A stretch of DNA of 64,000 bases from an uncultured bacterium (GTDB taxonomy: Bacteria; Patescibacteriota; JABMPQ01; CAVVCK01), in NCBI GenBank assembly GCA_963746775.1, contig CAVVCK010000001.1, positions 211,050 to 275,049 on the forward strand. The letters are read 5' to 3'. This document shows positions 438 through 46,382 of the stretch, piece by piece. The notes under the pieces were generated by a model. The model did not search any database. It saw only the letters and a list, made by a program, of their open reading frames with translations, and was not told where the DNA came from. Position 1 is the stretch's first letter. The number at the start of each line of letters is the position of its first letter. The translations under genes and the position numbers were made by a program.

Positions 438-728
438 TTATTTTACTATTGCTAATAAATCATCAATCCCAGCTACTAAATATTCTTCGTCTTCAATCTT
501 TATTTCGTCAGGACCATATTTTTTAAACAAGACTACATCGCCTTCCTTGACTGACATATCGGATTTATTACCATTTGATAAAGTTTTACCAAGACCAACA
601 GCAACGACTTCAGCTTTTTCTGGTTTTTCTTTCTCAGCTGTATCAGGTAAAATAATTCCTCCTTTAGTTTTTTCTTCTTTGGCAATTGGCTTTAGGATAA
701 CATTGTCTCCTAATGGTTGTAATTTCAT
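438..728 (-). CDS. groES: Co-chaperonin GroES
   Basis: 96 aa, MKLQPLGDNVILKP...GIILPDTAEKEKP..VVAVG..GDVVLFKKYG motif pattern of Cpn10; adjacent to groEL. Confidence 0.9.
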   Translation of the reverse strand: MKLQPLGDNVILKPIAKEEKTKGGIILPDTAEKEKPEKAEVVAVGLGKTLSNGNKSDMSVKEGDVVLFKKYGPDEIKIEDEEYLVAGIDDLLAIVK

Positions 729-832: not shown

Positions 833-963
833 TCCTCCTCCTTTAATAAGCTTGCCGGCCGACGAGGCAGGGAGGGATGGGGAGTGGTTCCATTTTAATT
901 TAGTAATTACTTTTTCCACGAAACCCATCCTACCTCCCCTTATTAAAGGGGAGGATTATCTTT
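833..963. repeat. Long GC-rich imperfect palindrome overlapping the 3' end of the 930..1931 gene
   Basis: Outer arms CCTCCTCCTTTAATAAG (833-849) and CTTATTAAAGGGGAGG (948-963); inner arms GGGAGGGATGGGGAG and CCCATCCTACCTCCCC. It is conspicuously GC-rich in an AT-rich context and could act as a terminator-like structure. Confidence 0.4.
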
Positions 964-1931
964 TTTAAATTCTCTTCATAAACCTTCCTAAAATAATCCC
1001 TTCTATCCTTCTCATGAAATTTCAACATTTGATCAGTTATAATTACATCCGTATCGTCACGCTGCCAGCTATCACTATTTTTCTTCATTTTTCCTTCCTG
1101 GATCTTTTTAAAATATTTTTCTACCAAATCACCTATTTTCGTATTTAAAATAGCTTCAAGTGATTTTCTTAGGATATCAAAGATAAATATTTTATCAACC
1201 TTTCTTTCTAATAAATTAGGATTATATTTTATAAAATTAGGAACGTACTTTCGAACCCATTCATTTTCTTCAATAAATTGGCCATATGCACCCCTATCCA
1301 AAAGAGGATAAATAAAAGTAACCCAATAACAAAGCATGGGATCATATGGCTTCTTAGCTAACCATTCTAAATTTAAACTTTTATCAGTTACATAAAAAGA
1401 TAAACAAATTTTATTAGCAATATTACTTTTATGCCGCCACTGACCCAATAAGAAAACTAGAGCTGTTATAAAAAATCTCGTCTGCCACATCCGACCATCT
1501 TTTATAATTACAAAAACATCAATATCACTATCTTCTTTGATATCATTTAAAACTAAGGTATTGCAAGCCGCAAACATTTTAATATTAGGTATAATTTGCA
1601 ATATCGACGCAATTCTTCTTAATTTCTTCCATCTATCTTTCGCTAAATTATGTCTTTTTTTTCTTAGCTCAACTAGCTTTTCATTGCCTTTTAAATAATA
1701 AAATCCATTTTTGCATCCTATTATTTTCTTTAAGCTTTTACTTTCGTCTAAAGCTTTTTGAATATCAGATAGTTTTATATTCCAATCTTTGATCTTCGAT
1801 TCTTGATCTCTTGCATAAAGCCACTTATAAATCTCCATTAATGTTAATGGATATTTATGTACACTAAAATAAGCTAGAGTAGAAATGATAGCTTCCTCCA
1901 GATCATTTAACTTATCTAAAAATTGAGGCAT
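930..1931 (-). CDS. Hypothetical protein with possible minimal nucleotidyltransferase-fold motif (..NDIKEDSDIDVFVII..)
   Basis: 333-aa ORF, no recognisable family beyond a DhDh-like motif; the assignment is weak. Confidence 0.45.
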   Translation of the reverse strand: MPQFLDKLNDLEEAIISTLAYFSVHKYPLTLMEIYKWLYARDQESKIKDWNIKLSDIQKALDESKSLKKIIGCKNGFYYLKGNEKLVELRKKRHNLAKDRWKKLRRIASILQIIPNIKMFAACNTLVLNDIKEDSDIDVFVIIKDGRMWQTRFFITALVFLLGQWRHKSNIANKICLSFYVTDKSLNLEWLAKKPYDPMLCYWVTFIYPLLDRGAYGQFIEENEWVRKYVPNFIKYNPNLLERKVDKIFIFDILRKSLEAILNTKIGDLVEKYFKKIQEGKMKKNSDSWQRDDTDVIITDQMLKFHEKDRRDYFRKVYEENLKKIILPFNKGR

Positions 1932-1937
1932 ATAAAT

Positions 1938-3674
1938 CTAATTACAAATATCTTCTTCGGGAAATTTTTCACAAATTAATTCTTCAAGATTATCTATTTC
2001 TCCTTGCTGTTCTTTAATAACTTCTAATAAATATATTGCTACCCGATCATATTTTACACCATTAGGTAAATTATTCTCATCCATTACTACTAGGTCTGGT
2101 ATTATTTCATTTACATCTTCGGCAATCAAACCTATATCTTGGCGACCCGAATTTTTATATTTAAAGCTTACTGGATTTAATTCTAATACTTTAGCTGTTT
2201 CTACTTCTAAATCCTTAATATCTTCTTTGTAGCGCCTAGATGAAGTTACTTCTACTAAATTATTACCATCTATTTGAATATCATTTCCCGATCCATTCGG
2301 TAAATTTTCAATTGTAAAATCTCCATCCAATACTGCTAACTCAACTAGAAAGTCTCCTCCCACAAAATGGCCACTTCTAGCCACACTATTAGATACTTCG
2401 CCATATACAGCTTCGCCAAAGTTACCATTAGCTTCAAAATATCCACCAAAACGATCATCATTGCTACCAGTATTACTAGCATAACCATAAACACCTATAC
2501 CATCGTCACCAGCTGCTTCAAAATAACCTCCGTAATTTAATCCTACTGTTCCAGCGGCGCTACCATATACACCTCTTCCATTGGTACCATTAGCTGAAAA
2601 CCATCCTCCATACTTTGTGCTACCACCACTATCAGAGGCCTGAGATCTGACACCTATGCCAGTACTACCGCTTGCACTAAAATATCCCCCCCAATTTTGA
2701 CCAGAGCTATTAGTCGCAATTCCGTATACACCAACACCTCCACTTGCTGAAGCTATGCCATATAGAGCTCTGCCATTACTCCCAGAATTTGCTGCATATA
2801 GGGTATTACCACTTACAACAGCATCTGACACAACAATTTGATCACTGACAGTTAGGGCACCTGTCATAGTATCACCACTAGCATCAACATAATCTGTATC
2901 CAAGTCGCTACTAGTTACAGTCCCATTCTCTATTTTAGCTGAAGTAATTGCATTATTAGCTATTAAAGAATTAGATATACCGCCATCAGTTACCCTTAAA
3001 GTAACATCACCTTCATCTCCACCACCGCTAAGTCCGGTACCAGCTGAAACACCAGTGATATCTCCTATAGTAATTGTATTATCTCCAGAATCATTATTAC
3101 TATCATCACTACTACTAGATCCCACCGTCACCCATTCTAACTCACTACCGTTGTAGGATAGTATTTGATTAGAAGTGCCGGCGTTAGAAGTGGCTATATT
3201 ATCATAGTGAACTATGTCTGATCCTAATAAATTGCCTACAGTCAAGTTTCCTGAAAAATAGCCGTCTCTAAATCTATAAGTATCTTTACCAATATCATTA
3301 GAAGCATCTAATCCTGGATAAATATGATCTCCTATCTTCAAAGCTCTTTCATCACTATAGCCCAAAGATGGTCCTCCGAATAAATAGCCGTCTATTCTAA
3401 CATTATCTCCAAAAGTTACAGGCATATCTGCTCCCGTATCAACATTAGTGGTATTGTTAATGATAGTACCATTAAAGAAGGTAACACCACCTGCGCCTTG
3501 TTTACCAACGTAAATAGAATCAAATCTGGCAGTATTATTAACTACCAACTCATCATTATAATTAACAATGGAAGCGGGTTGAAGAATTTTTACATCATCA
3601 GCTAATACCGGCTTAGACAACAAAAAAACACTAAACACAAAAGCAAACGATATAAGTTTACAATATTTCAACAT
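1938..3674 (-). CDS. Secreted Gly/Ser-rich tail-fibre-like protein (paralog 1) with C-terminal peptidase S74 intramolecular-chaperone-like domain
   Basis: N-terminal signal peptide MLKYCKLISFAFVFSVFLLSKPVLA. Conserved module VGKQGAGGVTFFNGTIINNTTNVDTG..PVTFGDNVRIDG is shared with ORFs 27482..28777 and 45336..46382. It has ITSAKIENGTVTSSDL-type tail-fibre repeats and GGYFEA/GVYG repeats. The C-terminus SSRRYKEDIKDL..LNPVSFKYK..GLIAEDVNEIIPDLV resembles the endosialidase-chaperone auto-cleaving domain (S-D/S-x-R-x-K-x-(D/N)-I). Confidence 0.6.
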   Translation of the reverse strand: MLKYCKLISFAFVFSVFLLSKPVLADDVKILQPASIVNYNDELVVNNTARFDSIYVGKQGAGGVTFFNGTIINNTTNVDTGADMPVTFGDNVRIDGYLFGGPSLGYSDERALKIGDHIYPGLDASNDIGKDTYRFRDGYFSGNLTVGNLLGSDIVHYDNIATSNAGTSNQILSYNGSELEWVTVGSSSSDDSNNDSGDNTITIGDITGVSAGTGLSGGGDEGDVTLRVTDGGISNSLIANNAITSAKIENGTVTSSDLDTDYVDASGDTMTGALTVSDQIVVSDAVVSGNTLYAANSGSNGRALYGIASASGGVGVYGIATNSSGQNWGGYFSASGSTGIGVRSQASDSGGSTKYGGWFSANGTNGRGVYGSAAGTVGLNYGGYFEAAGDDGIGVYGYASNTGSNDDRFGGYFEANGNFGEAVYGEVSNSVARSGHFVGGDFLVELAVLDGDFTIENLPNGSGNDIQIDGNNLVEVTSSRRYKEDIKDLEVETAKVLELNPVSFKYKNSGRQDIGLIAEDVNEIIPDLVVMDENNLPNGVKYDRVAIYLLEVIKEQQGEIDNLEELICEKFPEEDICN

Positions 3675-3707
3675 TTTTATTTTATTTTACTTATATTATA
3701 GCCTATT

Positions 3708-6557
3708 TTATCTTTTATTAAAATATTTTTTCAAGTATTCTCCCGTATAACTTCCCTTAACTTTAGTAATATCTCTCGGCGTCCCTTCCGCTACCAAATA
3801 GCCTCCTTTATCTCCACCCTCCGGCCCTAAATCAATTATCCAATCAGCACATTTTATTACATCTAAATTATGTTCGATAATTAAAACTGTATTTTTCATA
3901 TCGGCTAATTTATTCAAAACATTTAGCAATCTTTTTACATCATCAAAATGTAGGCCAGTTGTCGGTTCATCTAAAATGTATAATGTTTTGCCCGTAGCTC
4001 TTTTGGATAGTTCGGAAGCGAGCTTTATTCTCTGCGCCTCTCCGCCCGATAACGTCGTTGCTGGTTGTCCTAATTGTATATAGCCTAGCCCCACTTCGGA
4101 TAGAGTCTTTAATTTTTGCTTTAGAGCTGGGATATTGGCAAAAAAGGTTAAAGCCTCATCTACTGTCATATTAAGCACTTCTGATATATCTTTATTTTTA
4201 TAATGGATTTCTAGAGCTTGTTTATTATATCTCTTGCCCTGGCATTCTTCACATTTTACATATATATCTGGCAAAAAATGCATCTCAATTAATACTTGCC
4301 CTTCTCCCTGGCAAGCTTCACATCTACCGCCTTTAACATTAAAACTAAACCTGCCCGGCTTATAACCTCTAATTCTAGCTTCTTGTGTTGCAGCAAATAA
4401 ATCTCTTATGTAGGTAAATATTCCCGTATAAGTAGCAGGATTAGAACGAGGAGTGCGGCCAATAGGAGATTGATCTATGCGCACTACTTTATCAATATTT
4501 TCAAAACCCTTTATTTCTTTGTACTTACCCGGCCTAGACTTCGCTCTATAAAATTTCTCAGCCAAAGCTTTACCTAATATATCATCCATTAAGGTACTCT
4601 TGCCCGAACCAGATACTCCTGTAATGCAAACAAACTTACCAAGTGGAATTGAAACATTTATATTTTTTAAATTAAATTCCGAAGCACCAATTATTTTCAA
4701 AGATTTTCCATTACCAGACCGAAATTTCTTAGGCACGCTAATCTTTTCCCTACCCGAAAGATAAGCGCCCGTTAAAGATTTTTTGGATTTTTTAATAGCT
4801 AATATTTTCCCCTGAGCTATAACTTCACCGCCAAATTTACCAGCCCTGGGTCCGATATCTATCACTTCATCAGCAGCTTCCATCATGCTCTCATCGTGTT
4901 CAACCACAATTACTGTATTACCTAGGTCCCTTAAATTCTGTAATGTTTTAATCAACCTGTTATTATCTCTTTGGTGTAAACCAATTGATGGCTCGTCTAA
5001 TATATATATTACTCCAGATAATCCCGAACCAATTTGGGTAGCCAACCTTATCCTTTGAGATTCTCCACCAGACAAAGTCGCTGAGGACCTGTCTAACGTT
5101 ATATATTCTAAACCTACATTTTTAAGAAAACTTATCCTTTCCCTAATTTCTTTTATAATTTGTTCGGCAATTTTTAGTTCTGTTTTATTTAAATTATCTT
5201 TAGTACCTAATTTATTGAAAAAATCCAGAGATTTCTCTACACTCATAGCTCCCACTTCAGATATTGATTTGTCCAAAACTTTTACCGCTAAAGCCTGAGG
5301 GCTTAGCCTTTGACCATGGCAAGCAGGACATTTTTCTATTCTCATATACTTTTCTATTTCTGATCTGATATAGTCCGAATCTGTTTCTTTATATCTTCGC
5401 TCTAAATTTTTTACAATCCCTTCAAATGAAGTTCTGAATTGTGATACCTTTCCACTACCCGTAAAATTCTCCACCATGTAAATATTATTTCCCGTACCAT
5501 TTAATATTTTATCTAAATCTTCCTCTTTCAAATCTTTAATAGGGGTATTAAGTGAAAAATTATTTTCACGAGCTACAGCTTCCAATATCCTATAATACCA
5601 AGTCTGCCTGCCACTAGATGACGACCATGGGCGAATTGCACCTTCAGCTATGGTTAACCTCTTATTAGGAATAATTAAATCTGGATCAATCTTCAGCCTA
5701 TTACCTAACCCTTGGCACTCTGGACAAGCGCCATGAGGAGAATTAAAAGAAAAGTTTCTGGGATTTAATTCTCGAAAACTAATTTTACATTTTGGACAAG
5801 CAAAAAGTTCAGAAAACAGTATTTCCTTATCTTCTTCTAATAAGTAGACCATAACTACTCCATTACCTAATTCTAAGGCCGTCTCTAGAGAATCAGCCAA
5901 TCTTGATTTAATATCTTTCTCAATTACTAATCTATCAACTACCACATCTATAGAATGTTTTTTCTTTTTATCTAAATCCAAATCTTCTGCCTCTTCAATC
6001 GGATAAATTTTACCATCTATGCGAACTCTGACATAACTAGCCTTTCTTATCTCTTCTAAAACGTGACGATGTTCTCCTTTTTTATCTTGAATAATAGGGG
6101 AGAGTAAATTAATTTTAGTCCCTTTTTTTATTTCTAATATTTGATTCAAAATTTGATTGATGGTTTGTTTTTGAATTTTCTGCCCGCAGCGAGGACAATG
6201 AGGCTGACCAATACGCGCAAAGAGAAGCCTTAAGTAATCATATATTTCCGTAATAGTCCCTACTGTCGATCTTGGGTTTTTGGTTACACTTTTTTGATCA
6301 ATAGAAATAGCTGGTGAGAGCCCCTCTATCTTATCTACATCAGGCTTCTCCATTACTCCCAAGAATTGCCTGGCATAAGAAGATAGGCTTTCTACATAGC
6401 GTCTCTGCCCTTCCGCGTAAATAGTATCAAAAGCCAGTGATGATTTGCCTGAACCAGATAGTCCAGTTATTACTATTAATTTATTCTTAGGGATCTTGAT
6501 ATCAATATTTTTGAGATTATGAACCCTGGCGCCCTTAATGGTTATATAATCAGTCAT
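3708..6557 (-). CDS. uvrA: Excinuclease ABC subunit A
   Basis: 949 aa; N-terminus [67 protein letters not shown]; two ABC ATPase modules with zinc-finger Cys clusters. Confidence 0.95.
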
Positions 6558-6700
6558 TTTATATTTTTTAAATAGAAATTAATAATTAGGCATTAGGCAT
6601 TAATATTATTAGATTATTTTTTCTCATAACTAATATTCGATGTCTAATATATTTTGTTATTTAAGTATTATACTACCAATTTTAATTCAAAACAACCTAA

Positions 6701-6733
6701 AAAGAGCTTTAAAAGCTCTTTTTATTTTTTTTA
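6701..6733. terminator. Rho-independent terminator-like hairpin AAAGAGC-TTTAAAA-GCTCTTT followed by T-run
   Basis: Seen in sequence downstream of minus-strand gene 6769..7482. Confidence 0.5.
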
Positions 6734-6768
6734 TTCAATTTTAAATCTTACATTATAAATTATACGTC

Positions 6769-7482
6769 CTACTCAGCCTTAAAAGATTGAATTAATTGAT
6801 CGAATACTCCATCATCCTGGTGCTTATTATAGACATCAGTCATTTCCACAAATGAATCATTTAAAACAAAAACACCAACAGTCGAAGAAGTATAGCCAAT
6901 TAAATCCTTAAATAAATATAATGTGTTGCTGCCTTCTTCTTTTTTTTCAAATCCGCCAGAGGCATCTTCAAATAAATTTATATCATTTAAACCATCATAA
7001 TATCTCTCAATGGGAACTTTATTGTCATTTTCTTTATAGGCAATAATAATATCTCCCTGGTATTCAGCAACAATAGCTTGACCTTTTGGCCCAAAAGAAA
7101 ATTTATTTTCTTCCTCTAATTGATTAGCCTGCCAAGTATCTGGATATGTAAAAGATACACTCTGACCAGCTAAAATAGTTTTATATATATTTATATTTTT
7201 TTGATTCTCTTGATCTGTTTCTGCTTCACTGCTTTTTTCATCCTTCGTAACATCCGCTACGTTAATTTCCTGATCTATTATTTCATTTTTTTTATTAACT
7301 GCTGCAATTTCACTATTATTATCTTTTTCTTCACTATTTTTTACTTCCGCTACTGGAGAAGTTTCTTCTTTAATTTTATTATTTTGTATCACATTATAAA
7401 CTATTACAACAACAAAACTTACAAAAATCAGCAAGGCTATCATTTTTATAGTTTTATATTTTCTTTTTTTTCTTCTAGACAT
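6769..7482 (-). CDS. Hypothetical membrane-anchored acidic protein
   Basis: N-terminal basic stretch plus TM helix (IALLIFVSFVVVIVYNVI), acidic low-complexity linker, C-terminal globular domain; no family recognised. Confidence 0.5.
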   Translation of the reverse strand: MSRRKKRKYKTIKMIALLIFVSFVVVIVYNVIQNNKIKEETSPVAEVKNSEEKDNNSEIAAVNKKNEIIDQEINVADVTKDEKSSEAETDQENQKNINIYKTILAGQSVSFTYPDTWQANQLEEENKFSFGPKGQAIVAEYQGDIIIAYKENDNKVPIERYYDGLNDINLFEDASGGFEKKEEGSNTLYLFKDLIGYTSSTVGVFVLNDSFVEMTDVYNKHQDDGVFDQLIQSFKAE

Positions 7483-7500
7483 TTTATTTTATATTAAGAA

Positions 7501-8568
7501 TTATTCCTCTCCTTTATTATTTAAAAGTAATTTTAAATATTTAGGATCATTAGCATAAAGAATAGCGTTTTCTTCTGTTATCTCGTTATTTTTAACTAAA
7601 TCCAATAAAGATCTTTCTAATATTATCATACCTTCTTTGACGCTTGTCTGCATAACATTTTCTATCTGATAGGTTTTTTCTTCTCTAATTAAATTTCTTA
7701 TGGCTGGTGAGCTTTTTAAAATTTCACAAGCTACGATTCTACCACCTTTGATTCGCGGAAGAAGCCTCTGTGAGACCACTCCTAATAAAGTGCTCGCCAA
7801 TTGATATCTAATTTGCTTCTGTTGATGTGGAGGAAAAATATCAATCATACGATCCAAAGTTTGGGAAGCATTATTAGTATGCAGAGTAGACATAACCAAA
7901 TGACCAGTTTCAGCTAATGTAATTGCGGTTGAAACTGTTTCCAGATCCCTCATTTCCCCAACAAAGATAACATCTGGATCCTGCCTCAGAGCTGAGCGAA
8001 GCGCCTTTGGAAAAGATTTGGTGTCATTGTGCAACTCTCTTTGGTTTATTAAGCATTTGTCGGGTTTAAAGGTATATTCTATGGGATCTTCTATGGTAAT
8101 TAAGTGTTCTGCTCTGGTGTGATTAATAATATCTATTAAAGCAGCTAGAGTTGTTGTTTTACCATGACCGGTTGGACCTACCATTAATAGTAGTCCTTGC
8201 TTAGCTCTAGTGAAATCTGCTAACTGAAGAGGCAAATTTAACTCTTTTAGTGTTTTAATTTTCATTGGCAAAAAACGAAAAGCGCCACACATTGTTCCTT
8301 TTTGAAAATAAATATTGATTCTAAATCTGCCAATCTCCCCAAAAGCATAAGAGAGATCTATTTCTTTTTCTTGGTAAAGCTTTTCTTTCTGATCACTATT
8401 TAAGATTGATAGAACCATCTCCTCTACTTCCCTTGCACTTAATTTTTTTTCTTTATAGGAAGTTAATTTTCCATCAAAACGAAAAATAGGAGGCTCATCC
8501 GCTGTTAAATGCAAATCGGAAGCATTTTTATCTATAGCATGTTTTAGCAATTCATCTATTTTCATCAT
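7501..8568 (-). CDS. pilT: Type IV pilus retraction ATPase PilT
   Basis: 355 aa; Walker A GPTGHGKTT, PilT-type N-terminus MMKIDELLKHAIDKNASDLHL, length typical of PilT rather than PilB. Confidence 0.85.
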   Translation of the reverse strand: MMKIDELLKHAIDKNASDLHLTADEPPIFRFDGKLTSYKEKKLSAREVEEMVLSILNSDQKEKLYQEKEIDLSYAFGEIGRFRINIYFQKGTMCGAFRFLPMKIKTLKELNLPLQLADFTRAKQGLLLMVGPTGHGKTTTLAALIDIINHTRAEHLITIEDPIEYTFKPDKCLINQRELHNDTKSFPKALRSALRQDPDVIFVGEMRDLETVSTAITLAETGHLVMSTLHTNNASQTLDRMIDIFPPHQQKQIRYQLASTLLGVVSQRLLPRIKGGRIVACEILKSSPAIRNLIREEKTYQIENVMQTSVKEGMIILERSLLDLVKNNEITEENAILYANDPKYLKLLLNNKGEE

Positions 8569-8580
8569 ATTTTTTATTTA

Positions 8581-8679
8581 CTACGTACGAAAGCCTCTAA
8601 TATTATAATGGTCAAAGGCTTAAAAAAATTTTAATAAAATTATTTACTACACACAAAATACCTTTCGTATGCAGTTTAT
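8581..8679. repeat. Inverted-repeat motif pair (site 1): CTACGTACGAAAG ... CTTTCGTATGCAG flanking a roughly 68-bp AT-rich spacer
   Basis: Seen in sequence; same motif family as 15507..15617 and 23866..23938; lies 13 bp upstream of pilT start codon. Confidence 0.55.
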
Positions 8680-8710
8680 TTATCTTGTTAATTTTAGCAA
8701 ATTTTAAGGT

Positions 8711-9178
8711 TTAATTCAATAAATTAAGTTCTTCTAGAATTTGCCAAATAATATTTTCTGAAAAACCTTTTCTATTTAAATATTGACCTATTTTAGTAAT
8801 CTTATCTTTTTTCGTCTTACTTTTAATCATTCTTTCTTTTGCTTTGGCTAATTTATAAGCAAGTTTTATTTCCTCCTTTTCAGAAAAATTTTTCTTTAAT
8901 GTTTTTTCTACTAAATCTTGATCTAATCCTTTCTTAACCATTTTATTTTTACACAGAATCCTTCCTACTGGCCTATATTTAATTTGATTTTCTAAAAACA
9001 TTTCAGCATACTCTTTATCTGACAAAAGTTTATGTTTTAGAAAAAAATTTACTGTTTTATCTATTATTTCATCGTTATATCCTTTTTTAGCTAATTTATT
9101 TTTTATTTCTAAAACAGTCCGTGGATATTGAGATAAAAGTTTTGTGACGAAACTGCAGGCATTTTTAAAATGATCCAT
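8711..9178 (-). CDS. recX: RecX-like regulatory protein
   Basis: 155 aa, three-helical-repeat composition and RecX-like pattern (..LLSDKEYAEMFLENQIKYRPVGRILCKNKMVKKGLDQDLVEKTL..EKEEIKLAYKLAKAK..GFSENIIWQILEEL). Confidence 0.55.
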   Translation of the reverse strand: MDHFKNACSFVTKLLSQYPRTVLEIKNKLAKKGYNDEIIDKTVNFFLKHKLLSDKEYAEMFLENQIKYRPVGRILCKNKMVKKGLDQDLVEKTLKKNFSEKEEIKLAYKLAKAKERMIKSKTKKDKITKIGQYLNRKGFSENIIWQILEELNLLN

Positions 9179-9194
9179 AATAAAATTATGATTT

Positions 9195-9488
9195 CTACTT
9201 AAAAGGATTTTTTACCTGCTCAATTTCTGAAATTATATCTTGATTAACTTCTTTTCTTTTATTTAACTTTTCTAGCACCCCTTGGTCTACTTTGATTCTA
9301 ACATATTTATAATCTTTATTATCTACAGAAAGATTACTGGGACTAAGTACGGCTATATAAAAAATAACTGATACAAAAATAGCATTAGCTAGCGTTACAA
9401 ATAAAATAATTACTACCGCAGCTTGATCTAATTGGTCTTTGAAGTATGAAACTATTTTTGATTTTATATTTCTAATATCAATTTTCAT
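9195..9488 (-). CDS. Small single-TM hypothetical protein in pilus locus
   Basis: 97 aa with central hydrophobic helix AAVVIILFVTLANAIFVSVIFYIAVL. Confidence 0.4.
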   Translation of the reverse strand: MKIDIRNIKSKIVSYFKDQLDQAAVVIILFVTLANAIFVSVIFYIAVLSPSNLSVDNKDYKYVRIKVDQGVLEKLNKRKEVNQDIISEIEQVKNPFK

Positions 9489-9541
9489 TAACTTTAATTA
9501 TTTAACTATTAATTTTTTATTTAAAAAATTTGAATACACTT

Positions 9542-10174
9542 TCACCGAGTAAAAGCTCTAATTTCTAAAGTAGTCTTAACTATTTCTGCATTTGATAATT
9601 CCTCTTCTCCAAAAGGCTTAGTGCCCGATACAGGACTAGCGCTATTTGATTTTATTTCCATAGACACAACATCAGTATATACGCCTACACTTTCGAGCTC
9701 AGCTAAATATAAAAGAAGATTTTTGTAACTTCCCTGCAATTTTACCCTAAAACGTAGAGAGTTAATACTTTCTAAAGGATCCCTAATAGATTCTGTCTTA
9801 GAGTCTGTATTTCCATCTTTTTTATTTTTACTGCTCTCCTCTAATGTATTAATTACTTCTATTGTCTGGCTATTTGAAGTTTTTTCAGCTATATTTTCTA
9901 ATAAAACAATAAATTCTAGACCATTCTCTTTTGAAATTAAAGCTTTAGATAAATTATTCAAAGTTGATTTTGCTTCCTCTTCATCTTCTTTTAACTTTTT
10001 AAAATTATCTTTTTTTAAATCAAAATCTGCTATACCTGATTTTTGCTTTTTTATATCATCCGATAAAGCAAAAATATCCTTAACATAAGGGGCAATCACC
10101 AATACACCAAATACTACCAGTCCGAGACAAGTTGAAATAGTAATCAGGTAGATATTTTTTTTATTTGATATCAT
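9542..10174 (-). CDS. PilO-like type IV pilus assembly protein
   Basis: N-terminal TM helix followed by coiled-coil and C-terminal domain; position after PilM/PilN-like genes. Confidence 0.5.
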   Translation of the reverse strand: MISNKKNIYLITISTCLGLVVFGVLVIAPYVKDIFALSDDIKKQKSGIADFDLKKDNFKKLKEDEEEAKSTLNNLSKALISKENGLEFIVLLENIAEKTSNSQTIEVINTLEESSKNKKDGNTDSKTESIRDPLESINSLRFRVKLQGSYKNLLLYLAELESVGVYTDVVSMEIKSNSASPVSGTKPFGEEELSNAEIVKTTLEIRAFTR

Positions 10175-10180
10175 TATTTT

Positions 10181-10741
10181 TTAATCCTGGCTTATTAAAT
10201 ACTGGCTATTTAAATTAGTTGTTATCTCAAAGGGAATATTTCCCTGGCTTATTAAATAGTCAGATGGTAAATCAATATTTCTAAAATACTTGAATTTATT
10301 TAGTGCTTCTATATATTGTAATAACTGATCACGTTCTTCCGCTTTGCCAGTAATCTTAACTTCATTTTTTTCTTTGTTTAAAATCACATCACTAATAACA
10401 ATTCTATCGGGAGTAATAGCTGTTAAATCTAATAAGATATTTGACCACAAAACTCTATTCTTCTGGATTTTATCAATATTAATAAACATTACATTAGCAT
10501 TTTTAATAGTTGTTTCTATCTCTTGATTTTTATCTGAATCAAAATAGTTTTCAAAAGCTTTGTTCTGATCTTCTAAAGATTCCAAATTATTAGTAAGTAA
10601 CCTTTTAGTCGCAAATAAAAGTTCATAAGTAAGTCCCAATATTATAAAAGATAGGATAAACATGCCAACCACAGAAATACTGGCTTTTTTAGTTTCTATT
10701 TTTGTCTTTAATTGTTTAGGTATCAAATTTAGTGTTATCAT
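10181..10741 (-). CDS. PilN-like type IV pilus assembly protein
   Basis: Short cytoplasmic N-terminus, single TM (ISVVGMFILSFIILGLTYELLFA), periplasmic domain; overlaps pilM stop by 4 bp. Confidence 0.55.
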   Translation of the reverse strand: MITLNLIPKQLKTKIETKKASISVVGMFILSFIILGLTYELLFATKRLLTNNLESLEDQNKAFENYFDSDKNQEIETTIKNANVMFINIDKIQKNRVLWSNILLDLTAITPDRIVISDVILNKEKNEVKITGKAEERDQLLQYIEALNKFKYFRNIDLPSDYLISQGNIPFEITTNLNSQYLISQD

Positions 10742-11820: not shown

Positions 11821-12064
11821 ATTATTTAATTCACCTTATGCAAAATATTAAAGTTTTATTAATTATTTTAAAAAAATAGCAATAAATTAACAGATATACA
11901 ATTGAAATATAATAGAAATAAATAGCGGTGTAATCAAAGCAACTTATTTCAATGTACTTCTATGTATTTCTACCATATTTCAGTTAATAATTTACACATT
12001 ATTGTTTTCCCTAATAAGCTTATTTTTAAAAATATTATTGCATAACATTAGTTAGTTCTTTTTG

Positions 12065-13462: not shown

Positions 13463-13513
13463 ACTGATTATTGTTGAAGCACATACAAATATTATATGGA
13501 AATTAAAATTTTT

Positions 13514-14122: not shown

Positions 14123-14155
14123 TTTGGTATAATTAAATTTTTCCTATTTTTATTA

Positions 14156-15490: not shown

Positions 15491-15506
15491 GCACTTACTT
15501 TTATGC

Positions 15507-15617
15507 TTTTACCACGTACGAATTTCCGAATAAATAAATATTGTTTTTTTTCTTTTTAAGTAGTTTTATTAATCAGAAAAATATAATTTTAAACATTAGA
15601 AATTTGTACGTGGTTCA
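15507..15617. repeat. Inverted-repeat motif pair (site 2): TTTTACCACGTACGAATT ... AATTTGTACGTGGTTCAT flanking a roughly 77-bp AT-rich spacer
   Basis: Seen in sequence; arms ACCACGTACGAA / TTTGTACGTGGT are reverse complements with one mismatch; located between pilin start (15490) and pilC stop (15621). Confidence 0.6.
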
Positions 15618-15620
15618 TAT

Positions 15621-16823: not shown

Positions 16824-16866
16824 AAATTTATTAAATTCTAAATCCTAATATAGAGATATTAAAATA

Positions 16867-18597: not shown

Positions 18598-18748
18598 TAT
18601 CTTTTAAATTATTTTTTGTAGTTACCCCTTGTATATTCTAGTTTCTTTTAAAATTTAATCATATTATACCAAATTTTTATAAAAATACTATATTTAACAA
18701 TTGATATTTTAAATATAATTTAATACTATTTAGGTATAATTACATCTT

Positions 18749-27481: not shown

Positions 27482-28777
27482 TTAAGAACAACTTCCGACA
27501 GCATCTATCGTCTTCCAGGAAGCACTATTACAATAACATGGTTTATCTGCACTAATATCATAATAGATAGCACCCTTATTTGTTCCATCACATGTGCCAG
27601 GATCATCAGTAATATTCAGTTTCAATAACCCGTCACTGATTTCTACATTACCATTAAATCCACCCGCTACTGTTGCTGATCCTGCAGCTATTCCATACAC
27701 ACCAACTCCAAACGTTCCCGTAGCTTCTCCATAAACACCAACACTCCCACTATCTGAACCGTTTGATATAAATCTTCCCCCAACACCTTGGCCAGATATA
27801 CCGCTAGCCCTACCATAAACTCCAACACCAGCCGTATTCGAATCTGTTTTAAAATATCCTCCATAATTAACTCCTGAGGTACTATTAGCATAACCATAAA
27901 TTGCTTTTACTCCACTACCTGAATTAGTAGCTGAAATCAAACTAGTAGGCGAACCGCTCACCGTAATACCAGTACTAGTTCCAGAGCTTACTGTTAGAGT
28001 ATTATTAATAGTCAATGACCCCGTCATTGTCTCATTCGTATCATCATTTAAAAACCGTGAATCATAAGCAGAACCTGATTGATAAGTTGATGTCAAATCA
28101 GCACCTGCTATTGTTCCGTTTAAAATTTTAGCCGTTGTTATAGTATTATCAGCTATATCAGCCGTAGTTATAGTTCCATCAGTGATCATACTAGATGTGA
28201 CACCAGAAACACTAAGAATCACAGCACCTGATGTTCCACCACCACTAAGTCCTGATCCTGCAGTAATTTCTGTAATTTCACTACTAGATCCAGAGCTACC
28301 ATCTATCCACTCTAGTGCTCCACTCGAATTAAGTGATAATATTTGCCCTGATGATCCAGTATTAGATGTAGTTAGTTGACTTACTCCTATCAAATCTGAT
28401 CCTTGAATGGTACCTAATATTTCTAGGTTATCATTGATAACAAAAGGAGTATTCCCGTTAGCTTCTGGGCCAGAAGTTGCTCCACGCCAAACTTGGCCAT
28501 CTATTCTAACATCATCACCAAAGGTTACAGGTATTTCTGCTCCTGTGTCTACATTGGTAGTTTCATTGATAATCGTTCCATTAAAATAAGTAACGCCACC
28601 ATGTCCTTGGGTTCCGACTCGAAGAGAATAAACTCTGGCAGTACCTAAAACTTGTAATTCTTGATCAATAACTTGCGTATTCGCTGGTTGTATTTGATTA
28701 GTTACTGACGCAGACACAGAATTAGTAAAAATAAATACAAAAAAAGCGATTGCAATAGAAATTAAAATATTTTTCAT
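27482..28777 (-). CDS. Secreted tail-fibre-like protein (paralog 2) with Cys-containing C-terminal domain
   Basis: Signal peptide MKNILISIAIAFFVFIFTNSVSA; shares N-terminal module (VGTQGHGGVTYFNGTIINETTNVDTGAEIPVTFGDDVRIDG) with 1938..3674 and 45336..46382; ITTADIADNTITTAKILNGTIAGADL repeats; C-terminus has 5 Cys (..PGTCDGTNKGAIYYDISADKPCYCNSASWKTIDAVGSCS). Confidence 0.55.
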   Translation of the reverse strand: MKNILISIAIAFFVFIFTNSVSASVTNQIQPANTQVIDQELQVLGTARVYSLRVGTQGHGGVTYFNGTIINETTNVDTGAEIPVTFGDDVRIDGQVWRGATSGPEANGNTPFVINDNLEILGTIQGSDLIGVSQLTTSNTGSSGQILSLNSSGALEWIDGSSGSSSEITEITAGSGLSGGGTSGAVILSVSGVTSSMITDGTITTADIADNTITTAKILNGTIAGADLTSTYQSGSAYDSRFLNDDTNETMTGSLTINNTLTVSSGTSTGITVSGSPTSLISATNSGSGVKAIYGYANSTSGVNYGGYFKTDSNTAGVGVYGRASGISGQGVGGRFISNGSDSGSVGVYGEATGTFGVGVYGIAAGSATVAGGFNGNVEISDGLLKLNITDDPGTCDGTNKGAIYYDISADKPCYCNSASWKTIDAVGSCS

Positions 28778-45335: not shown

Positions 45336-46382
45336 CTACGGAAGAGGATTATCAACTGTATAACTAATTGTAACACCACCTAACCGCATATCTGCACTCG
45401 AAGCACTAAAATTTACAAATATATAATAAGAATATTGGCTATTATCAATAATGGCATTAGAAATGGAAGTAGCTGAGGCCTCTCTCCATGATCCTAAATT
45501 AGTAGTAGGAACAATAGAGGCTATTGTCTCAGTAGTACTTTTATTATTACTTCTTGCTAACGCAAAATTCATATTCTCATCTGGTACGTTATTATAATAA
45601 TCTACTGTCATCCCCGTTATAATAGCTCCATTAGGAAAATCTACAGGCGACGAAAAAGAATCATCTGTTGTACTAAGAACACCACTTGCTTTAGCATAAG
45701 TATCAGTCTCATTATTAGGTATAAAGCCATACCCGGAAACAGATAAATACCTCGTCTGTGCAGAATTATAAGAATAAGAAGCTGCAGTTATATTAGAATT
45801 ATCAGCAATTTTATCACCAGTTACAGCATCATCAGCAAGCCTAGCAGTATTTATCCCTCCATCAGCTACTGATACAATAGCATCACCAGAAGATCCATTA
45901 GATACAGAAATACCATCACCAGCTAAAACTGAAGTAATATCACCAACAGTAACTGTACTAGTATCATCACTATTATTGGCTAAGGTTAGAGTTCCAGTTA
46001 TCTGCACATCATCATTAATAATAAAAGGCATATCATCTCCCAGGCCTGGTCCATAGTTCAAACCACGAAATACACGGCCATCTATTCTGACATTATCACC
46101 AAAGGTAACAGGATTATCCACACCATCATTAGTAGTACTATTTACAATAGTACCATTAAAGAAAGTAACACCACCTGTACCCTGTTTACCAATATAAACA
46201 GAATTAAAGCGACCAGTATTATTAACTACCAACTCTTCATTGTAAGTAATACTAGAGGCAGGTTGTAATTGGCTTATGGTTGAAGTAGCTTGGTCTATTC
46301 CACTAAGTGTGGCAGCCGAAGCTGAACCTATGGTAGCCAACAAGCCCAAAGTTACTGCTATAACAAAAGCTAATTTTTTCAT
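45336..46382 (-). CDS. Secreted tail-fibre-like protein (paralog 3)
   Basis: Signal peptide MKKLAFVIAVTLGLLATIGSASA; conserved module IGKQGTGGVTFFNGTIVNSTTNDGVDNPVTFGDNVRIDG; INTARLADDAVTGDKIADNS repeat; divergent C-terminal domain. Confidence 0.55.
   Translation of the reverse strand: MKKLAFVIAVTLGLLATIGSASAATLSGIDQATSTISQLQPASSITYNEELVVNNTGRFNSVYIGKQGTGGVTFFNGTIVNSTTNDGVDNPVTFGDNVRIDGRVFRGLNYGPGLGDDMPFIINDDVQITGTLTLANNSDDTSTVTVGDITSVLAGDGISVSNGSSGDAIVSVADGGINTARLADDAVTGDKIADNSNITAASYSYNSAQTRYLSVSGYGFIPNNETDTYAKASGVLSTTDDSFSSPVDFPNGAIITGMTVDYYNNVPDENMNFALARSNNKSTTETIASIVPTTNLGSWREASATSISNAIIDNSQYSYYIFVNFSASSADMRLGGVTISYTVDNPLP

What the first reader, a model, noticed from the sequence alone, without database searches (positions are those of the whole stretch)
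1938..3674. Secreted tail-fibre-like protein with a C-terminal peptidase-S74 intramolecular-chaperone-like domain next to uvrA
The protein has a signal peptide and a conserved N-terminal module, then glycine-rich GGYFEA/GVYG repeats. It also carries I..AKI.NG.VT..DL repeats characteristic of phage tail-fibre and tail-spike shafts. The C-terminus (SSRRYKEDIKDLEVETAKVLELNPVSFKYK..IGLIAEDVNEIIPDLV..) matches the auto-cleaving chaperone domain found on phage endosialidases and tail fibres. In a chromosomal housekeeping context with no other phage genes nearby, this suggests a host-encoded trimeric fibre, for example an adhesin, rather than a prophage remnant.
Basis: partly seen in the sequence, partly recalled or inferred. 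Interest (0 to 1): 0.6.

Follow-up and report, generated by a model that had tools for sequence, protein, structure and literature searches.

The report
Secreted self-cleaving fibre of a Patescibacterium
A tiny-genome (Patescibacteria/CPR) bacterium encodes, among housekeeping genes, an exported fibre protein with a lineage-specific base, a fast-evolving tip and the self-cleaving folding cap of phage tail fibres, which makes it a candidate for how these epibionts bind other cells.

Summary
ORF 1938-3674 (-) encodes a 578-aa protein with a Sec-type signal peptide and a C-terminal Peptidase_S74 intramolecular-chaperone domain (Pfam E 1.6e-13). The Ser478/Lys483 dyad is invariant, and the predicted fold matches solved chaperone domains. 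It is not a prophage remnant. All 64 kb are housekeeping genes, and GC3 equals that of host genes. The order uvrA-fibre-333aa-groES is kept in related genomes and in a Kerfeldbacteria genome, where the slot holds a non-S74 relative. The N-terminal module (aa 26-185) defines a Patescibacteria-centred family of about 2,300 clusters at 50% identity. It always sits right after the signal peptide, is multi-copy per genome, often in tandem arrays, and is absent from 50,697 phage genomes. Two non-S74 paralogues lie in the same window. Against orthologues, the base is 85-97% identical and the tip before the cleavage site 17-33%. The architecture parallels the Bdellovibrio MAT fibres. Most likely it is a surface-anchored, probably trimeric, self-processed fibre that binds a partner-cell surface. 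Adhesion, trimerisation and cleavage are inferred. Homology of the base to the MAT base could not be tested.

The parts
1938..3674 (-). Whole gene: 578-aa secreted S74-capped fibre protein
   Evidence: ORF list. An identical protein (P0001) lies on a 547,309-bp contig.
3600..3674 (-). Sec-type signal peptide, aa 1-25 (MLKYCKLISFAFVFSVFLLSKPVLA); no lipobox
   Evidence: Sequence and hydropathy. Relatives have equivalent N-termini, and the conserved core starts at a median of aa 28. Inferred, because no predictor was run.
3387..3599 (-). N-core, aa 26-96 (LQPA...GGVTFFNGTI.N...PVTFGDNVRIDG): Patescibacteria-centred family signature and presumed cell-proximal base
   Evidence: Alignment A2 shows invariant G/GGV/N/D.R.DG columns. 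It is 85-97% identical to orthologues. There is no Pfam, PDB, BFVD or phage match.
3120..3386 (-). Second half of the N-module, aa 97-185. It matches a generic unit of about 55 aa that also occurs in 8-20 tandem copies in giant (2,000-5,300 aa) proteins from MAGs labelled Patescibacteria or Thermoplasmatota, or unlabelled.
   Evidence: Profile positions 82-150 match repeatedly in P0233-P0288.
3060..3119 (-). Ser/Asp/Asn-rich linker, aa 186-205
   Evidence: Composition S 28%, D 20%. It has indels relative to orthologues.
2820..3059 (-). Short tail-fibre-like shaft stretch, aa 206-285, including the single ITSAKIENGTVTSSDL motif (aa 243-258)
   Evidence: Regex. PHROG tail families match from aa 217 or 244 onward. 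Phage PblB-type fibres align from aa 228-241 to 568 at 23-25% identity.
2385..2819 (-). Gly-rich repeat shaft, aa 286-430: four units of about 27 aa (consensus GRGVYGxAxxSGxxTNYGGYFxAxGxx)
   Evidence: Motif spacing and DNA repeats D3. Alignment A4. No PDB, Pfam or phage match. Repeat units are gained or lost between orthologues.
2244..2384 (-). Hypervariable distal tip, aa 431-477, immediately before the cleavage site; presumed ligand-binding end
   Evidence: Only 17-28% identity to orthologues over aa 401-480, against 85-97% in the base.
1941..2243 (-). Peptidase_S74 intramolecular chaperone / auto-processing domain, aa 478-578. Catalytic Ser478 is at nt 2241-2243 and Lys483 at nt 2226-2228. 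The C-terminal Cys pair is C..FPEEDIC.
   Evidence: Pfam. Ser and Lys are invariant in alignment A3. PDB profile hits are the S16 long tail fibre 6f45 (1.8e-10), MyRF and T5 pb1. Model pLDDT is 84-94. Foldseek.
3705..3734 (-). Promoter-like site (TTGAAA-18-TAAAAT) overlapping the end of uvrA, just upstream of the fibre start. A TATAAT also lies in the 33-nt uvrA-fibre gap.
   Evidence: Consensus scan and sequence. Promoter-like matches were not enriched over shuffles (40 found, 33.5 expected), so this is weak.
27482..28777 (-). Paralogue 1 (431 aa, P0034): same signal peptide, N-module and Gly repeats, no S74; Cys-rich C-terminus
   Evidence: tblastn gives 40% identity over aa 1-376, E 2e-49. 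Translation. No Pfam hit.
45336..46382 (-). Paralogue 2 (348 aa, P0089): same signal peptide and N-module, a different beta-rich C-terminal module, no S74
   Evidence: tblastn E 2e-31. Translation. No Pfam or PHROG hit.
930..1931 (-). Downstream gene, 6 nt after the fibre stop. It is a 333-aa cytoplasmic conserved hypothetical whose named relatives are all Patescibacteria, with a weak nucleotidyltransferase-like DxD motif. It is syntenic with the fibre slot, and a functional link is unproven.
   Evidence: 79% identical in L001 and present next to the slot in Kerfeldbacteria L063. Of 105 homologues, every named one is Patescibacteria or Magasanikbacteria, and none has a Pfam domain. NTP_transf_2 scores E 0.046, below threshold.

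Best explanation
The gene encodes a chromosomally inherited, Sec-exported, mosaic cell-surface fibre of a Patescibacterium.

Proposed mechanism:
1. The signal peptide is removed after Ala25.
2. Outside the membrane, the C-terminal S74 intramolecular-chaperone domains of (most likely) three chains associate and drive folding of the Gly-rich repeat shaft.
3. Ser478, activated by Lys483, cuts the chain in front of itself and releases a 101-aa cap.
4. This leaves a mature fibre of about 452 aa per chain (aa 26-477). Its conserved N-terminal module holds it at the cell envelope. Its newly exposed, fast-evolving C-terminal tip (aa ~400-477) binds a ligand on another cell's surface, most plausibly the host bacterium of this epibiotic lineage.

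It is one of at least four paralogues in the genome. All share the base and carry different distal modules, giving a repertoire analogous to the Bdellovibrio MAT fibres.

Shown: the domain architecture, the catalytic dyad, the chaperone fold, the non-phage context, vertical inheritance, the family distribution and the tip hypervariability.

Inferred: export, trimerisation, self-cleavage, anchoring through the N-module, and the adhesive function. I put the structural and processing part at about 0.85 and the adhesion role at about 0.5; the single confidence value given (0.6) is for the whole statement.
For: S74 domain:
- Pfam score is 51 bits against a cut-off of 22.
- S478 and K483 are invariant across 18 diverse homologues.
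- Foldseek top hits are the solved ICA domains of MyRF, GA-1 and K1F.
- Profile hits reach phage S16 and T5 fibre chaperones.

Not a prophage:
- Every ORF tested in the 64-kb window is housekeeping, and there is no tRNA.
- GC3 is 0.19 overall, against 0.18-0.27 in neighbouring genes.

Vertical inheritance and a conserved slot:
- The order uvrA-fibre-unk333-groES-groEL is found in L001/L002 and L003.
- uvrA-[N-core gene, 320 aa, no S74]-unk333 homologue-groES/EL is found in Kerfeldbacteria L063, where uvrA is 69% identical.

Rate pattern:
- The fibre is 56% identical to its L001 orthologue, against 90% for uvrA, 85% for pilT and 79% for unk333.
- Within the fibre, the base is 85-97% identical, the tip 17-33% and the chaperone 60-94%.

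N-module family:
- 131 loci in species-representative genomes, nearly all Patescibacteria, with 7-10 copies in some MAGs.
- 2,332 clusters at E<=1e-3.
- The core always follows the signal peptide, and 15 of 212 members carry S74.
- Tandem arrays of up to six genes occur.
- The module is absent from phages.

The N-terminal position behaves as an anchor position: a homologue with the same Gly repeats and S74 carries an SLH cell-wall-binding domain there instead (P0083).

Precedent: Bdellovibrio MAT fibres have a signal peptide, a conserved ~130-aa N-domain, and S74 or non-S74 tips. They are surface-exposed, self-cleave at the S74 Ser, and one type was shown to bind several bacterial surface glycans (PMC10769870).

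Open need: additional close-proximity adhesins, not yet identified, are proposed for Saccharibacteria (PMC12206443).
Against: - No experiment or multimer model supports the trimer. The monomer AF2 model is poor in the shaft (pLDDT 40-57).
- No ligand-binding domain is recognisable in the tip.
- The MAT 'capping loop' motif is absent.
- Most family members are short (median 319 aa) and lack S74. The family's core function may therefore not require a long fibre, and could be something other than adhesion.
- Proximity to the type IV pilus cluster is not a general feature: about 6 of 78 loci.
- How the N-module would attach to the envelope is unknown. There is no LPXTG, SLH, lipobox or transmembrane segment.
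- The epibiotic lifestyle of this particular organism is assumed from its phylum.
Confidence: 0.6

Rival explanations
1. It is a variable surface-coat or envelope protein rather than an adhesin. The N-core family would form a layer or fuzzy coat on the cell. The variable distal parts would serve antigenic or phage-receptor variation, decoying or protection, not attachment to a host.
For: - Most members are short (median 319 aa), lack S74 and sit in tandem arrays of similar genes, as is typical of variable surface-protein families.
- No recognisable lectin or binding domain is present.
- Rapid tip evolution fits evasion as well as it fits binding.
Against: - S74-capped fibres characterised so far are receptor-binding or glycan-processing proteins (phage fibres and spikes; Bd MAT).
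- A 450-aa extended fibre with a conserved base and a variable far end is the geometry of a reach-out binder.
- Patescibacteria need host-contact factors that are still unidentified.
Confidence: 0.22
2. It is a remnant or domesticated receptor-binding protein of a prophage, tailocin or extracellular contractile injection system encoded elsewhere in the genome.
For: - The S74 domain and part of the shaft are shared with phage tail fibres: 433 phage records match aa >=228, as do tail PHROGs.
- eCIS fibres can also carry S74 (papers listed).
- Only 64 kb of a contig of at least 547 kb were inspected.
Against: - A Sec signal peptide is incompatible with cytoplasmic virion or tailocin assembly.
- The N-terminal module, which in phage fibres docks to the baseplate, has no match in 50,697 phage genomes even at E 0.1, nor in BFVD.
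- There are no phage, sheath, tube or baseplate genes in the window.
- The housekeeping slot is conserved across deep divergence.
- GC3 is host-like.
Confidence: 0.05
3. It is a secreted or surface enzyme of tailspike type, such as a polysaccharide depolymerase. The S74 cap would assist folding of a catalytic beta-helix that degrades host capsule or cell-wall polymers.
For: S74 was first described on endosialidases and is common on depolymerase tailspikes (own knowledge; PDB hits 3gw6, 3ju4 and 4hiz). An epibiont could profit from digesting host surface polymers.
Against: - No glycosidase, lyase or esterase family matches anywhere in the mature part (Pfam, NCBIfam, PHROGs).
- The mature part is a low-complexity 27-aa Gly/Tyr repeat with no PDB or Pfam counterpart, not a right-handed beta-helix of enzyme size.
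- The Foldseek matches to endosialidases have E-values of 2 or more and cover only stalk or chaperone parts.
Confidence: 0.07
4. It is an accessory of the neighbouring type IV pilus machinery, for example a pilus-associated tip or sheath adhesin, and is placed at the edge of the pil cluster for co-expression.
For: The gene lies 3.8 kb from pilT and within 15 kb of pilM/N/O, pseudopilins, pilC and pilB. That arrangement is kept in L001. Type IV pili drive host binding in Saccharibacteria.
Against: - There is no prepilin N-methylation motif.
- uvrA separates the gene from the pil genes.
- Only about 6 of 78 other N-core loci have any pilus gene within 6 kb.
- The two paralogues in this window sit next to tRNA-synthetase/PGM and miaA/helicase genes.
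Confidence: 0.05

Closest known systems
Bdellovibrio bacteriovorus MAT (mosaic adhesive trimer) fibres, S74 subgroup, e.g. Bd3182 (Caulton et al. 2024, PMC10769870)
   Same: - Both are chromosomal and non-phage.
- Both have a signal peptide followed immediately by a conserved domain shared by all paralogues, then an extended beta-rich shaft, then a C-terminal S74 domain with an S-x4-K dyad.
- In both genomes, paralogues replace S74 with other tip modules.
- Both occur as a multi-gene repertoire in an organism that lives by attaching to other bacteria.
   Different: - The N-domain here is a Patescibacteria-centred family with no Pfam or PDB match. Its homology to the MAT N-domain is untested.
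- The shaft is a 27-aa Gly/Tyr repeat, not the MAT beta-helix with V-G-G/N-pi-x-x-P-x-x-x-L capping loops; that motif is absent.
- It is much shorter: 578 aa against 626-1,959 aa for the MAT proteins in the part of Supplementary Table S1 that I read.
- The host cell is presumably monoderm-like rather than a Gram-negative predator.
- Nothing has been shown experimentally.
Phage tail fibres and tailspikes with a C-terminal intramolecular chaperone (K1F/NF endosialidase 3gw6, GA-1 neck appendage 3gud, T5 pb1 L-shaped fibre, S16 long tail fibre 6f45, streptococcal PblB)
   Same: The C-terminal S74/ICA domain is shared by sequence and by predicted fold. There is weak similarity from aa ~228 onward to PblB-type fibres. 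The logic of a folding cap that is cut off to expose the distal end is the same.
   Different: - The protein has a signal peptide.
- There is no virion-attachment N-terminus, and the N-module and Gly repeats are undetectable in 50,697 phage genomes.
- The gene is not in a phage module.
- It is inherited vertically in a housekeeping slot.
MyRF (myelin regulatory factor) ICA domain, 7dc3
   Same: It is the best structural match of the C-terminal domain (Foldseek E 3e-4, probability 1.0). It also hits by profile (E 6e-4). It is another case of the phage chaperone domain recruited by a cellular protein.
   Different: It is a eukaryotic membrane-bound transcription factor. Cleavage there releases a nuclear fragment. 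Apart from the ICA domain the two proteins share nothing.
Cell-wall-anchored S74 fibres of other bacterial phyla, e.g. P0083 (SLH domain + Gly repeats + S74), and 'tail fiber domain-containing proteins' of Planctomycetota and Marinimicrobia MAGs
   Same: They share the same Gly-rich NYGGYF/GRGVYG repeat shaft and S74 cap, at 31-55% identity in these parts, and they have signal peptides.
   Different: Their N-terminal modules differ (SLH, a 'GTAFTYQGRL'-type module, YadA-head or TSP3 repeats). The N-core of the window protein is confined almost entirely to Patescibacteria.
Trimeric autotransporter adhesins (YadA family)
   Same: They are the same functional class as proposed here: a secreted trimeric fibre adhesin with a modular stalk. 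Some homologues of the window protein even contain YadA-head repeats (P0026, P0104).
   Different: The window protein has no C-terminal beta-barrel translocator or anchor, and its polarity is the opposite (base at the N-terminus, tip at the C-terminus). Trimerisation would be driven by a cleavable chaperone domain rather than by the membrane anchor.

Membership tests
Peptidase S74 / intramolecular chaperone auto-processing (ICA) domain proteins | Significant match to PF13884 above the gathering score, at the C-terminus | tested here: met
   51.2 bits against a cut-off of 22, E 1.6e-13, aa 478-529, profile positions 1-57 of 58.
Peptidase S74 / intramolecular chaperone auto-processing (ICA) domain proteins | Catalytic Ser-Lys dyad in an S-x-x-x-x-K ('SDxxxK') motif at the start of the domain | tested here: met
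   S478-S-R-R-Y-K483. Ser and Lys are invariant in 18 diverse homologues, along with G, A-E and Y of the GxIAEEV/Y motifs. The motif definition comes from PMC10769870.
Peptidase S74 / intramolecular chaperone auto-processing (ICA) domain proteins | Fold of solved ICA domains | tested here: met
   The model has pLDDT 84-94 over aa 490-578. Foldseek PDB top hits are MyRF ICA 7dc3 (E 3.3e-4, probability 1.0), GA-1 3gud (probability 1.0) and K1F 3gw6. TM-scores are modest (0.49-0.51 per target), as expected when a monomer model is compared with swapped trimers.
Peptidase S74 / intramolecular chaperone auto-processing (ICA) domain proteins | Trimerisation-dependent autoproteolysis that releases the C-terminal domain | not testable with these tools
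   This needs expression of the wild type against S478A/K483A, or a multimer prediction. Only monomer AF2 was available.
Bdellovibrio-type MAT fibre family (Caulton et al. 2024) | Signal peptide directly followed by a conserved domain of about 130 aa shared by all paralogues | tested here: met
   The architecture is met. The core starts at a median of aa 28 in 212 proteins. Three paralogues in the window share it, and a fourth (P0209) is on the same contig.
Bdellovibrio-type MAT fibre family (Caulton et al. 2024) | Homology of that N-domain to the Bdellovibrio MAT N-domain | not testable with these tools
Bdellovibrio-type MAT fibre family (Caulton et al. 2024) | S74 and non-S74 subgroups with swapped C-terminal tips within one genome | tested here: met
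   The window holds one S74 member and two non-S74 members with unrelated C-termini. Family-wide, 15 of 212 members carry S74.
Bdellovibrio-type MAT fibre family (Caulton et al. 2024) | Trimeric beta-helix shaft with the capping-loop motif V-G-G/N-pi-x-x-P-x-x-x-L | tested here: not met
   A regex search finds no instance. The shaft is instead a 27-aa Gly/Tyr repeat without a PDB or Pfam counterpart.
Bdellovibrio-type MAT fibre family (Caulton et al. 2024) | Surface exposure and binding of target-cell envelope components | not testable with these tools
   Experimental only.
Phage virion tail fibre (prophage-encoded) | Encoded within a phage structural or morphogenesis module, or flanked by integrase or att sites | tested here: not met
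   All ORFs of the 64-kb window that have a Pfam match are housekeeping genes. There is no tRNA. The housekeeping synteny is conserved.
Phage virion tail fibre (prophage-encoded) | N-terminal virion/baseplate-attachment region related to phage proteins; cytoplasmic assembly, hence no signal peptide | tested here: not met
   The N-module has no tblastn match in 50,697 phage genomes at E<=0.1 and no significant BFVD fold match. A Sec-type signal peptide is present.
Patescibacterial 'N-core' secreted protein family (unnamed; defined here) | LQPA...GGVTFFNGTI.N...PVTFGD.VRIDG core immediately after the signal peptide | tested here: met
   Alignment A2. Profile search results. hmmsearch of loci and proteins.
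Trimeric autotransporter adhesins | C-terminal YadA-type beta-barrel membrane anchor | tested here: not met
   There is no YadA_anchor or other Pfam match besides S74. The C-terminus is the S74 domain.

The most novel reading that the evidence does not exclude
The N-core family, including this S74-capped member, is the host-recognition repertoire of Patescibacteria. The cell would display a set of modular fibres whose swappable, fast-evolving tips decide which bacteria an epibiont can attach to. This would be the cellular counterpart of phage receptor-binding proteins, and it would have arisen independently of, or anciently shared with, the Bdellovibrio MAT fibres. The uvrA-groES slot would be a long-lived locus at which distal modules are exchanged.
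Probability: 0.35. Interest if true: 0.8.

Novelty: new variant of a known kind. Interest (0 to 1): 0.55.

Why it matters
All cultivated Patescibacteria are obligate epibionts. How they identify and hold on to host cells is stated to be largely unknown, apart from type IV pili, and as-yet-unidentified 'close-proximity adhesins' have been postulated (PMC12206443).

This gene points to a concrete, large and so far undescribed candidate family. I found no paper that links S74 or tail-fibre-like proteins with Patescibacteria in this sense. Its features are:
- about 2,300 clusters at 50% identity;
- several copies per sub-megabase genome;
- a conserved base;
- exchangeable distal modules, including the phage-type self-cleaving cap.

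If the family does bind hosts, tip sequences could be used to predict host range from metagenomes. It would also show that the 'phage-fibre as cellular adhesin' solution described in Bdellovibrio is used in a second, very different group of bacteria that live on other bacteria.

The family also contains two uncharacterised structural modules that have no solved counterpart: the N-core and the 27-aa NYGGYF/GRGVYG repeat.

Tried and rejected
1. Prophage remnant: rejected. There are no phage genes in 64 kb, GC3 is host-like and synteny is conserved.
2. Diversity-generating retroelement acting on the tip: an Avd-like gene lies at 25976-26347. However, Pfam found no reverse transcriptase among the ORFs scanned, and there is no template/variable repeat pair. 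The only long direct repeats are the paralogous N-modules and the internal Gly repeats.
3. General linkage to type IV pili: not supported (about 6 of 78 loci).
4. Defence-system membership: PADLOC finds nothing for the fibre.
5. RNA elements: no Rfam hit in the window.
6. Fold of the N-module: no significant match in PDB (best E 0.36) or BFVD (best E 0.15). The sub-threshold hits are all extended fibre-like chains.
8. Single-sequence search against PDB sequences found no S74 hit. A profile was needed.
9. I tried to obtain Bdellovibrio MAT N-domain sequences from the paper's supplement. It holds none.
10. Function of the downstream 333-aa gene: the named homologues are all Patescibacterial hypotheticals, with no PDB hit and only sub-threshold nucleotidyltransferase similarity.
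Named relatives of neighbouring genes are Kerfeldbacteria and Magasanikbacteria, so I infer only 'Patescibacteria, probably near those lineages'.
12. The full-length AF2 monomer model is unreliable in the shaft (pLDDT 40-57). I did not use it for that part.
Full report
**1. What is at the coordinates**

The ORF list gives a 578-aa ATG-started ORF at exactly 1938..3674 on the minus strand. It lies 33 nt downstream of uvrA (3708..6557) and 6 nt upstream of a 333-aa ORF (930..1931). groES follows at 438..728. An identical protein (P0001) is on record from a 547,309-bp contig.

The N-terminus (MLKYCKLISFAFVFSVFLLSKPVLA|DD) has the n-, h- and c-regions of a Sec signal peptide. There is no lipobox. 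No predictor was available, so export is an inference from sequence. It is supported by equivalent N-termini in hundreds of relatives.

**2. The C-terminal domain is a genuine S74 intramolecular chaperone**

- Pfam PF13884 matches aa 478-529 at 51.2 bits (cut-off 22), E 1.6e-13, starting at profile position 1.
- PHROG tail-fibre and baseplate families match aa ~470-567 at E ~2e-14.
- The motif S478-S-R-R-Y-K483 has the spacing of the 'SDxxxK' catalytic motif described for S74 proteins (motif from PMC10769870).
- In an alignment of 18 diverse homologues, this Ser and Lys are invariant, as are the G, A-E and Y of the GxIAEEV/Y motifs.
- A profile of that alignment finds the chaperone-bearing fibres of phage S16 (6f45, 1.8e-10), MyRF (6e-4) and T5 pb1 (1.2e-3) among solved structures.
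- The AF2 monomer model is confident only here (pLDDT 84-94 for aa 490-578).
- Foldseek places the MyRF ICA domain (E 3.3e-4), the GA-1 chaperone 3gud and the K1F chaperone 3gw6 on top.
- Cleavage in front of Ser478 would leave a mature chain of aa 26-477 and a 101-aa cap. Cleavage itself is inferred.

**3. Anatomy of the rest** (coordinates verified)

- **aa 26-96, the 'N-core'** (LQPA...GGVTFFNGTI.N...PVTFGDNVRIDG).
- **aa 97-185, second half of the N-module.** In the exhaustive profile search it turned out to match a generic ~55-aa unit. That unit also occurs in 8-20 tandem copies in giant proteins of 2,000-5,300 aa. These come from MAGs labelled Patescibacteria or, in two cases, Thermoplasmatota, or they carry no organism label.
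- **aa 186-205, a Ser/Asp-rich linker.**
- **aa 206-285, a short stretch with tail-fibre-like motifs.**
- **aa 286-430, four ~27-aa Gly/Tyr repeats.** GG[YW]F occurs at 329, 356, 382 and 410. There are DNA repeats of 78-84 nt at 2401-2610. The consensus GRGVYGxAxxSGxxTNYGGYFxAxGxx has no Pfam, PDB or phage counterpart.
- **aa 431-477, the tip,** directly before the cleavage site.

**4. It is not a prophage gene**

- Every ORF of the window that gives a Pfam match is a housekeeping gene. These include groES, uvrA, uvrC, recX, recA, ssb, ftsK, rpoB, gyrB, pheST, gatB, thyA, folA, tmk, ribosomal proteins, nusG, RNase J, an oligopeptide-binding protein and a type IV pilus cluster (pilT, pilM/N, pseudopilins, pilC, pilB).
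- There is no integrase, terminase, capsid, sheath, tube or baseplate gene. There is no tRNA and no Rfam hit.
- The raised GC of the gene (0.37-0.43, against 0.32 for the window) is an amino-acid effect. GC3 is 0.19, and 0.14-0.25 in each segment after the signal peptide, like neighbouring genes at 0.18-0.27.
- The order uvrA-fibre-333aa-groES-groEL recurs in two independent related assemblies, where the fibre is 56% (L001/L002) and 58% (L003) identical.
- A Kerfeldbacteria genome (L063; uvrA 69% identical) has the same slot. There it is occupied by a 320-aa N-core protein without S74, followed by the homologue of the 333-aa gene, one extra gene and groES/EL.
- The slot is therefore old, and the distal part of its occupant has been exchanged.

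**5. The N-module defines a Patescibacteria-centred family**

- tblastn finds two more members in the window: 27482..28777 (431 aa; Gly repeats, Cys-rich end, no S74) and 45336..46382 (348 aa; unrelated beta-rich end). Both lie in housekeeping contexts. A fourth (P0209) is on the same contig.
- A scan of one genome per prokaryotic species with the N-module alignment found 131 relatives. Nearly all are in Patescibacteria, Parcubacteria, Kerfeldbacteria, WWE3 or Saccharibacteria MAGs, with 7-10 loci in single MAGs.
- A few hits are in MAGs labelled Gammaproteobacteria or Pirellulales. Their GC (0.40-0.47) lies within the range of the Patescibacterial loci, so mis-binning cannot be excluded.
- The exhaustive profile search gives 2,332 clusters at 50% identity at E<=1e-3, and 828 at E<=1e-10.
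- Among 313 fetched proteins, 212 carry the N-core, always right behind the signal peptide (median start aa 28, maximum 65). Only 15 of them (7%) also carry S74. The rest are short, with a median length of 319 aa.
- Tandem arrays of up to six such genes occur (L010).
- The N-module has no match in 50,697 phage genomes even at E 0.1. It has no significant fold match in PDB (best 0.36) or BFVD (best 0.15). The whole protein matches 433 phage records, but only from aa 228 onward.

**6. Mosaicism and polarity**

Among the first 120 homologues, the modules combine freely:
- N-module with or without Gly repeats and S74;
- Gly repeats plus S74 behind quite different N-termini.

One such N-terminus is an S-layer-homology domain, a known cell-wall anchor (P0083). 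Others contain YadA-head or thrombospondin repeats. This supports reading the N-terminal position as the cell-proximal, anchoring end and the C-terminus as the distal end. That reading is an inference.

**7. Evolutionary rate**

- Against the L001 genome, uvrA is 90% identical, groES 86%, pilT 85%, the 333-aa gene 79% and the fibre 56%.
- Within the fibre, identity to the two orthologues is 85-97% for aa 41-120. It falls to 30-33% at aa 321-360 and 17-28% at aa 401-480. It rises again to 60-94% in the chaperone. Whole repeat units are gained or lost.
- A conserved base and cap with a hypervariable segment just before the cleavage site is the pattern expected for a receptor-binding or otherwise exposed tip.

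**8. Mechanism proposed**

Export by Sec is followed by association of three C-terminal S74 domains, which nucleates folding of the repeat shaft. Ser478/Lys483 then cut off the cap. The N-module retains the mature fibre at the envelope, and the exposed variable tip binds a surface ligand of another cell.

Shown here: the architecture, the dyad, the chaperone fold, the non-phage and vertically inherited context, the family distribution and the rate pattern.

Inferred: export, trimer, cleavage, anchoring and adhesion.

The strongest external support is the Bdellovibrio MAT family. It comprises 21 chromosomal proteins with a signal peptide, an invariant ~130-aa N-domain, trimeric shafts, and either S74 (13 proteins) or other tips (8 proteins). 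MAT proteins are surface-exposed. Self-cleavage at the S74 Ser was shown for Bd3182, and glycan binding for one MAT type (PMC10769870).

For Patescibacteria, host-binding factors beyond type IV pili are explicitly unknown (PMC12206443).

**9. What speaks against it, and the rivals**

- The shaft could not be modelled as a monomer (pLDDT 40-57).
- The MAT capping-loop motif is absent.
- No binding domain is recognisable.
- The anchoring mode is unknown.
- Most family members are short and lack S74. A role as a variable coat or decoy protein is therefore a serious rival (about 0.2).
- Prophage, tailocin or eCIS fibre (about 0.05), depolymerase (about 0.07) and pilus accessory (about 0.05; only about 6 of 78 loci are near pilus genes) are less likely.

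**10. Comparison and novelty**

NCBI already labels some relatives 'tail fiber domain-containing protein [Patescibacteria group bacterium]', so the S74 domain in such genomes is annotated. I found no paper that connects it, or the N-core family, with Patescibacterial biology.

I therefore class it as a new variant of a known kind: a cellular S74-capped fibre with a lineage-specific base and an undescribed repeat shaft. Interest is moderate, and it would become high if the host-recognition role were confirmed.

Noticed in passing
window 930-1931 (-): A 333-aa cytoplasmic ORF starts 6 nt after the fibre stop. It stays next to the fibre slot even in Kerfeldbacteria (L063). Its named homologues are all Patescibacteria or Magasanikbacteria and none has a Pfam domain. 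It has a weak nucleotidyltransferase-like 'SDIDVFVI' motif (NTP_transf_2 E 0.046). Function and any link to the fibre are unknown.
   Followed up: partly
proteins P0233-P0236, P0240, P0265, P0288: Giant proteins of 2,000-5,300 aa carry 8-20 tandem copies of the second half of the N-module (profile positions ~82-150). They come from MAGs labelled Patescibacteria or, in two cases, 'Thermoplasmatota', or they have no organism label. One of them (P0233, 3,407 aa) ends in an S74 domain.
   Followed up: partly
window 1941-1985 (-) and homologues in alignment A3: S74 domains attached to the Patescibacterial N-core end in a conserved Cys pair (C-x-x-[FL]-P-x-E-E-x-C). S74 domains from other phyla lack it. 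This would fit a disulphide formed outside the cytoplasm.
   Followed up: no
window 27482-27590 (-), C-terminus of paralogue 1: The 431-aa paralogue ends in a four-Cys motif, CDGTNKGAIYYD...PCYCN..W....GSC, in place of S74. This is a different, unassigned distal module.
   Followed up: no
window 55108-55178 and 56859-56929: A 71-nt direct repeat, 94% identical, lies upstream of rplK and upstream of a CarS-like gene. It looks as if a two-gene lipid cassette (CarS-like plus polyprenyl synthetase) was inserted between nusG and rplK and carries a copy of the intergenic leader or promoter. There is no Rfam match.
   Followed up: no
window 56285-56827 (-), 55197-56243 (-), 53888-54511 (-): A CDP-archaeol synthase-like gene (PF01864, E 2e-32), a polyprenyl synthetase and a CDP-alcohol phosphatidyltransferase are interleaved with the nusG-rplK-rplA ribosomal cluster. 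An archaeal-type lipid enzyme family in a bacterial genome is worth a look.
   Followed up: no
window 25976-26347 (+): A 123-aa four-helix-bundle protein of the 23S-rRNA-IVP / bAvd-like family (E 5.6e-30 and 6e-6) lies 1.1 kb from paralogue 1. Pfam found no reverse transcriptase among the ORFs scanned, and no template/variable repeat was found, so there is no evidence for a DGR.
   Followed up: partly
window 3708-20563: DNA-repair genes (uvrA, recX, uvrC) are interleaved with the type IV pilus cluster (pilT, pilM/N/O-like, pseudopilins, pilC, pilB). The arrangement is conserved in L001. One pseudopilin (14156-15490, 444 aa) carries a CarboxypepD_reg-like domain.
   Followed up: no
window 6769-7482 (-): A 237-aa membrane-anchored protein with a Lys/Glu-rich spacer lies between uvrA and pilT. 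It evolves as fast as the fibre (57% identity to L001, against 85-90% for its neighbours) and matches no family.
   Followed up: no
L033 (uncultured Saccharibacteria MAG), ORFs 1035-3617 (-), 3716-4681 (+), 5820-6827 (+): This Saccharibacteria contig has three N-core genes side by side, one of them an 860-aa S74-capped member. The family may therefore be reachable in the only Patescibacterial group that has genetic tools.
   Followed up: no
window 12065-13462 (-) and 20606-21589 (-): Two sizeable ORFs (465 aa, inside the pilus cluster, 82% identical in L001; and 327 aa) have no Pfam match.
   Followed up: no
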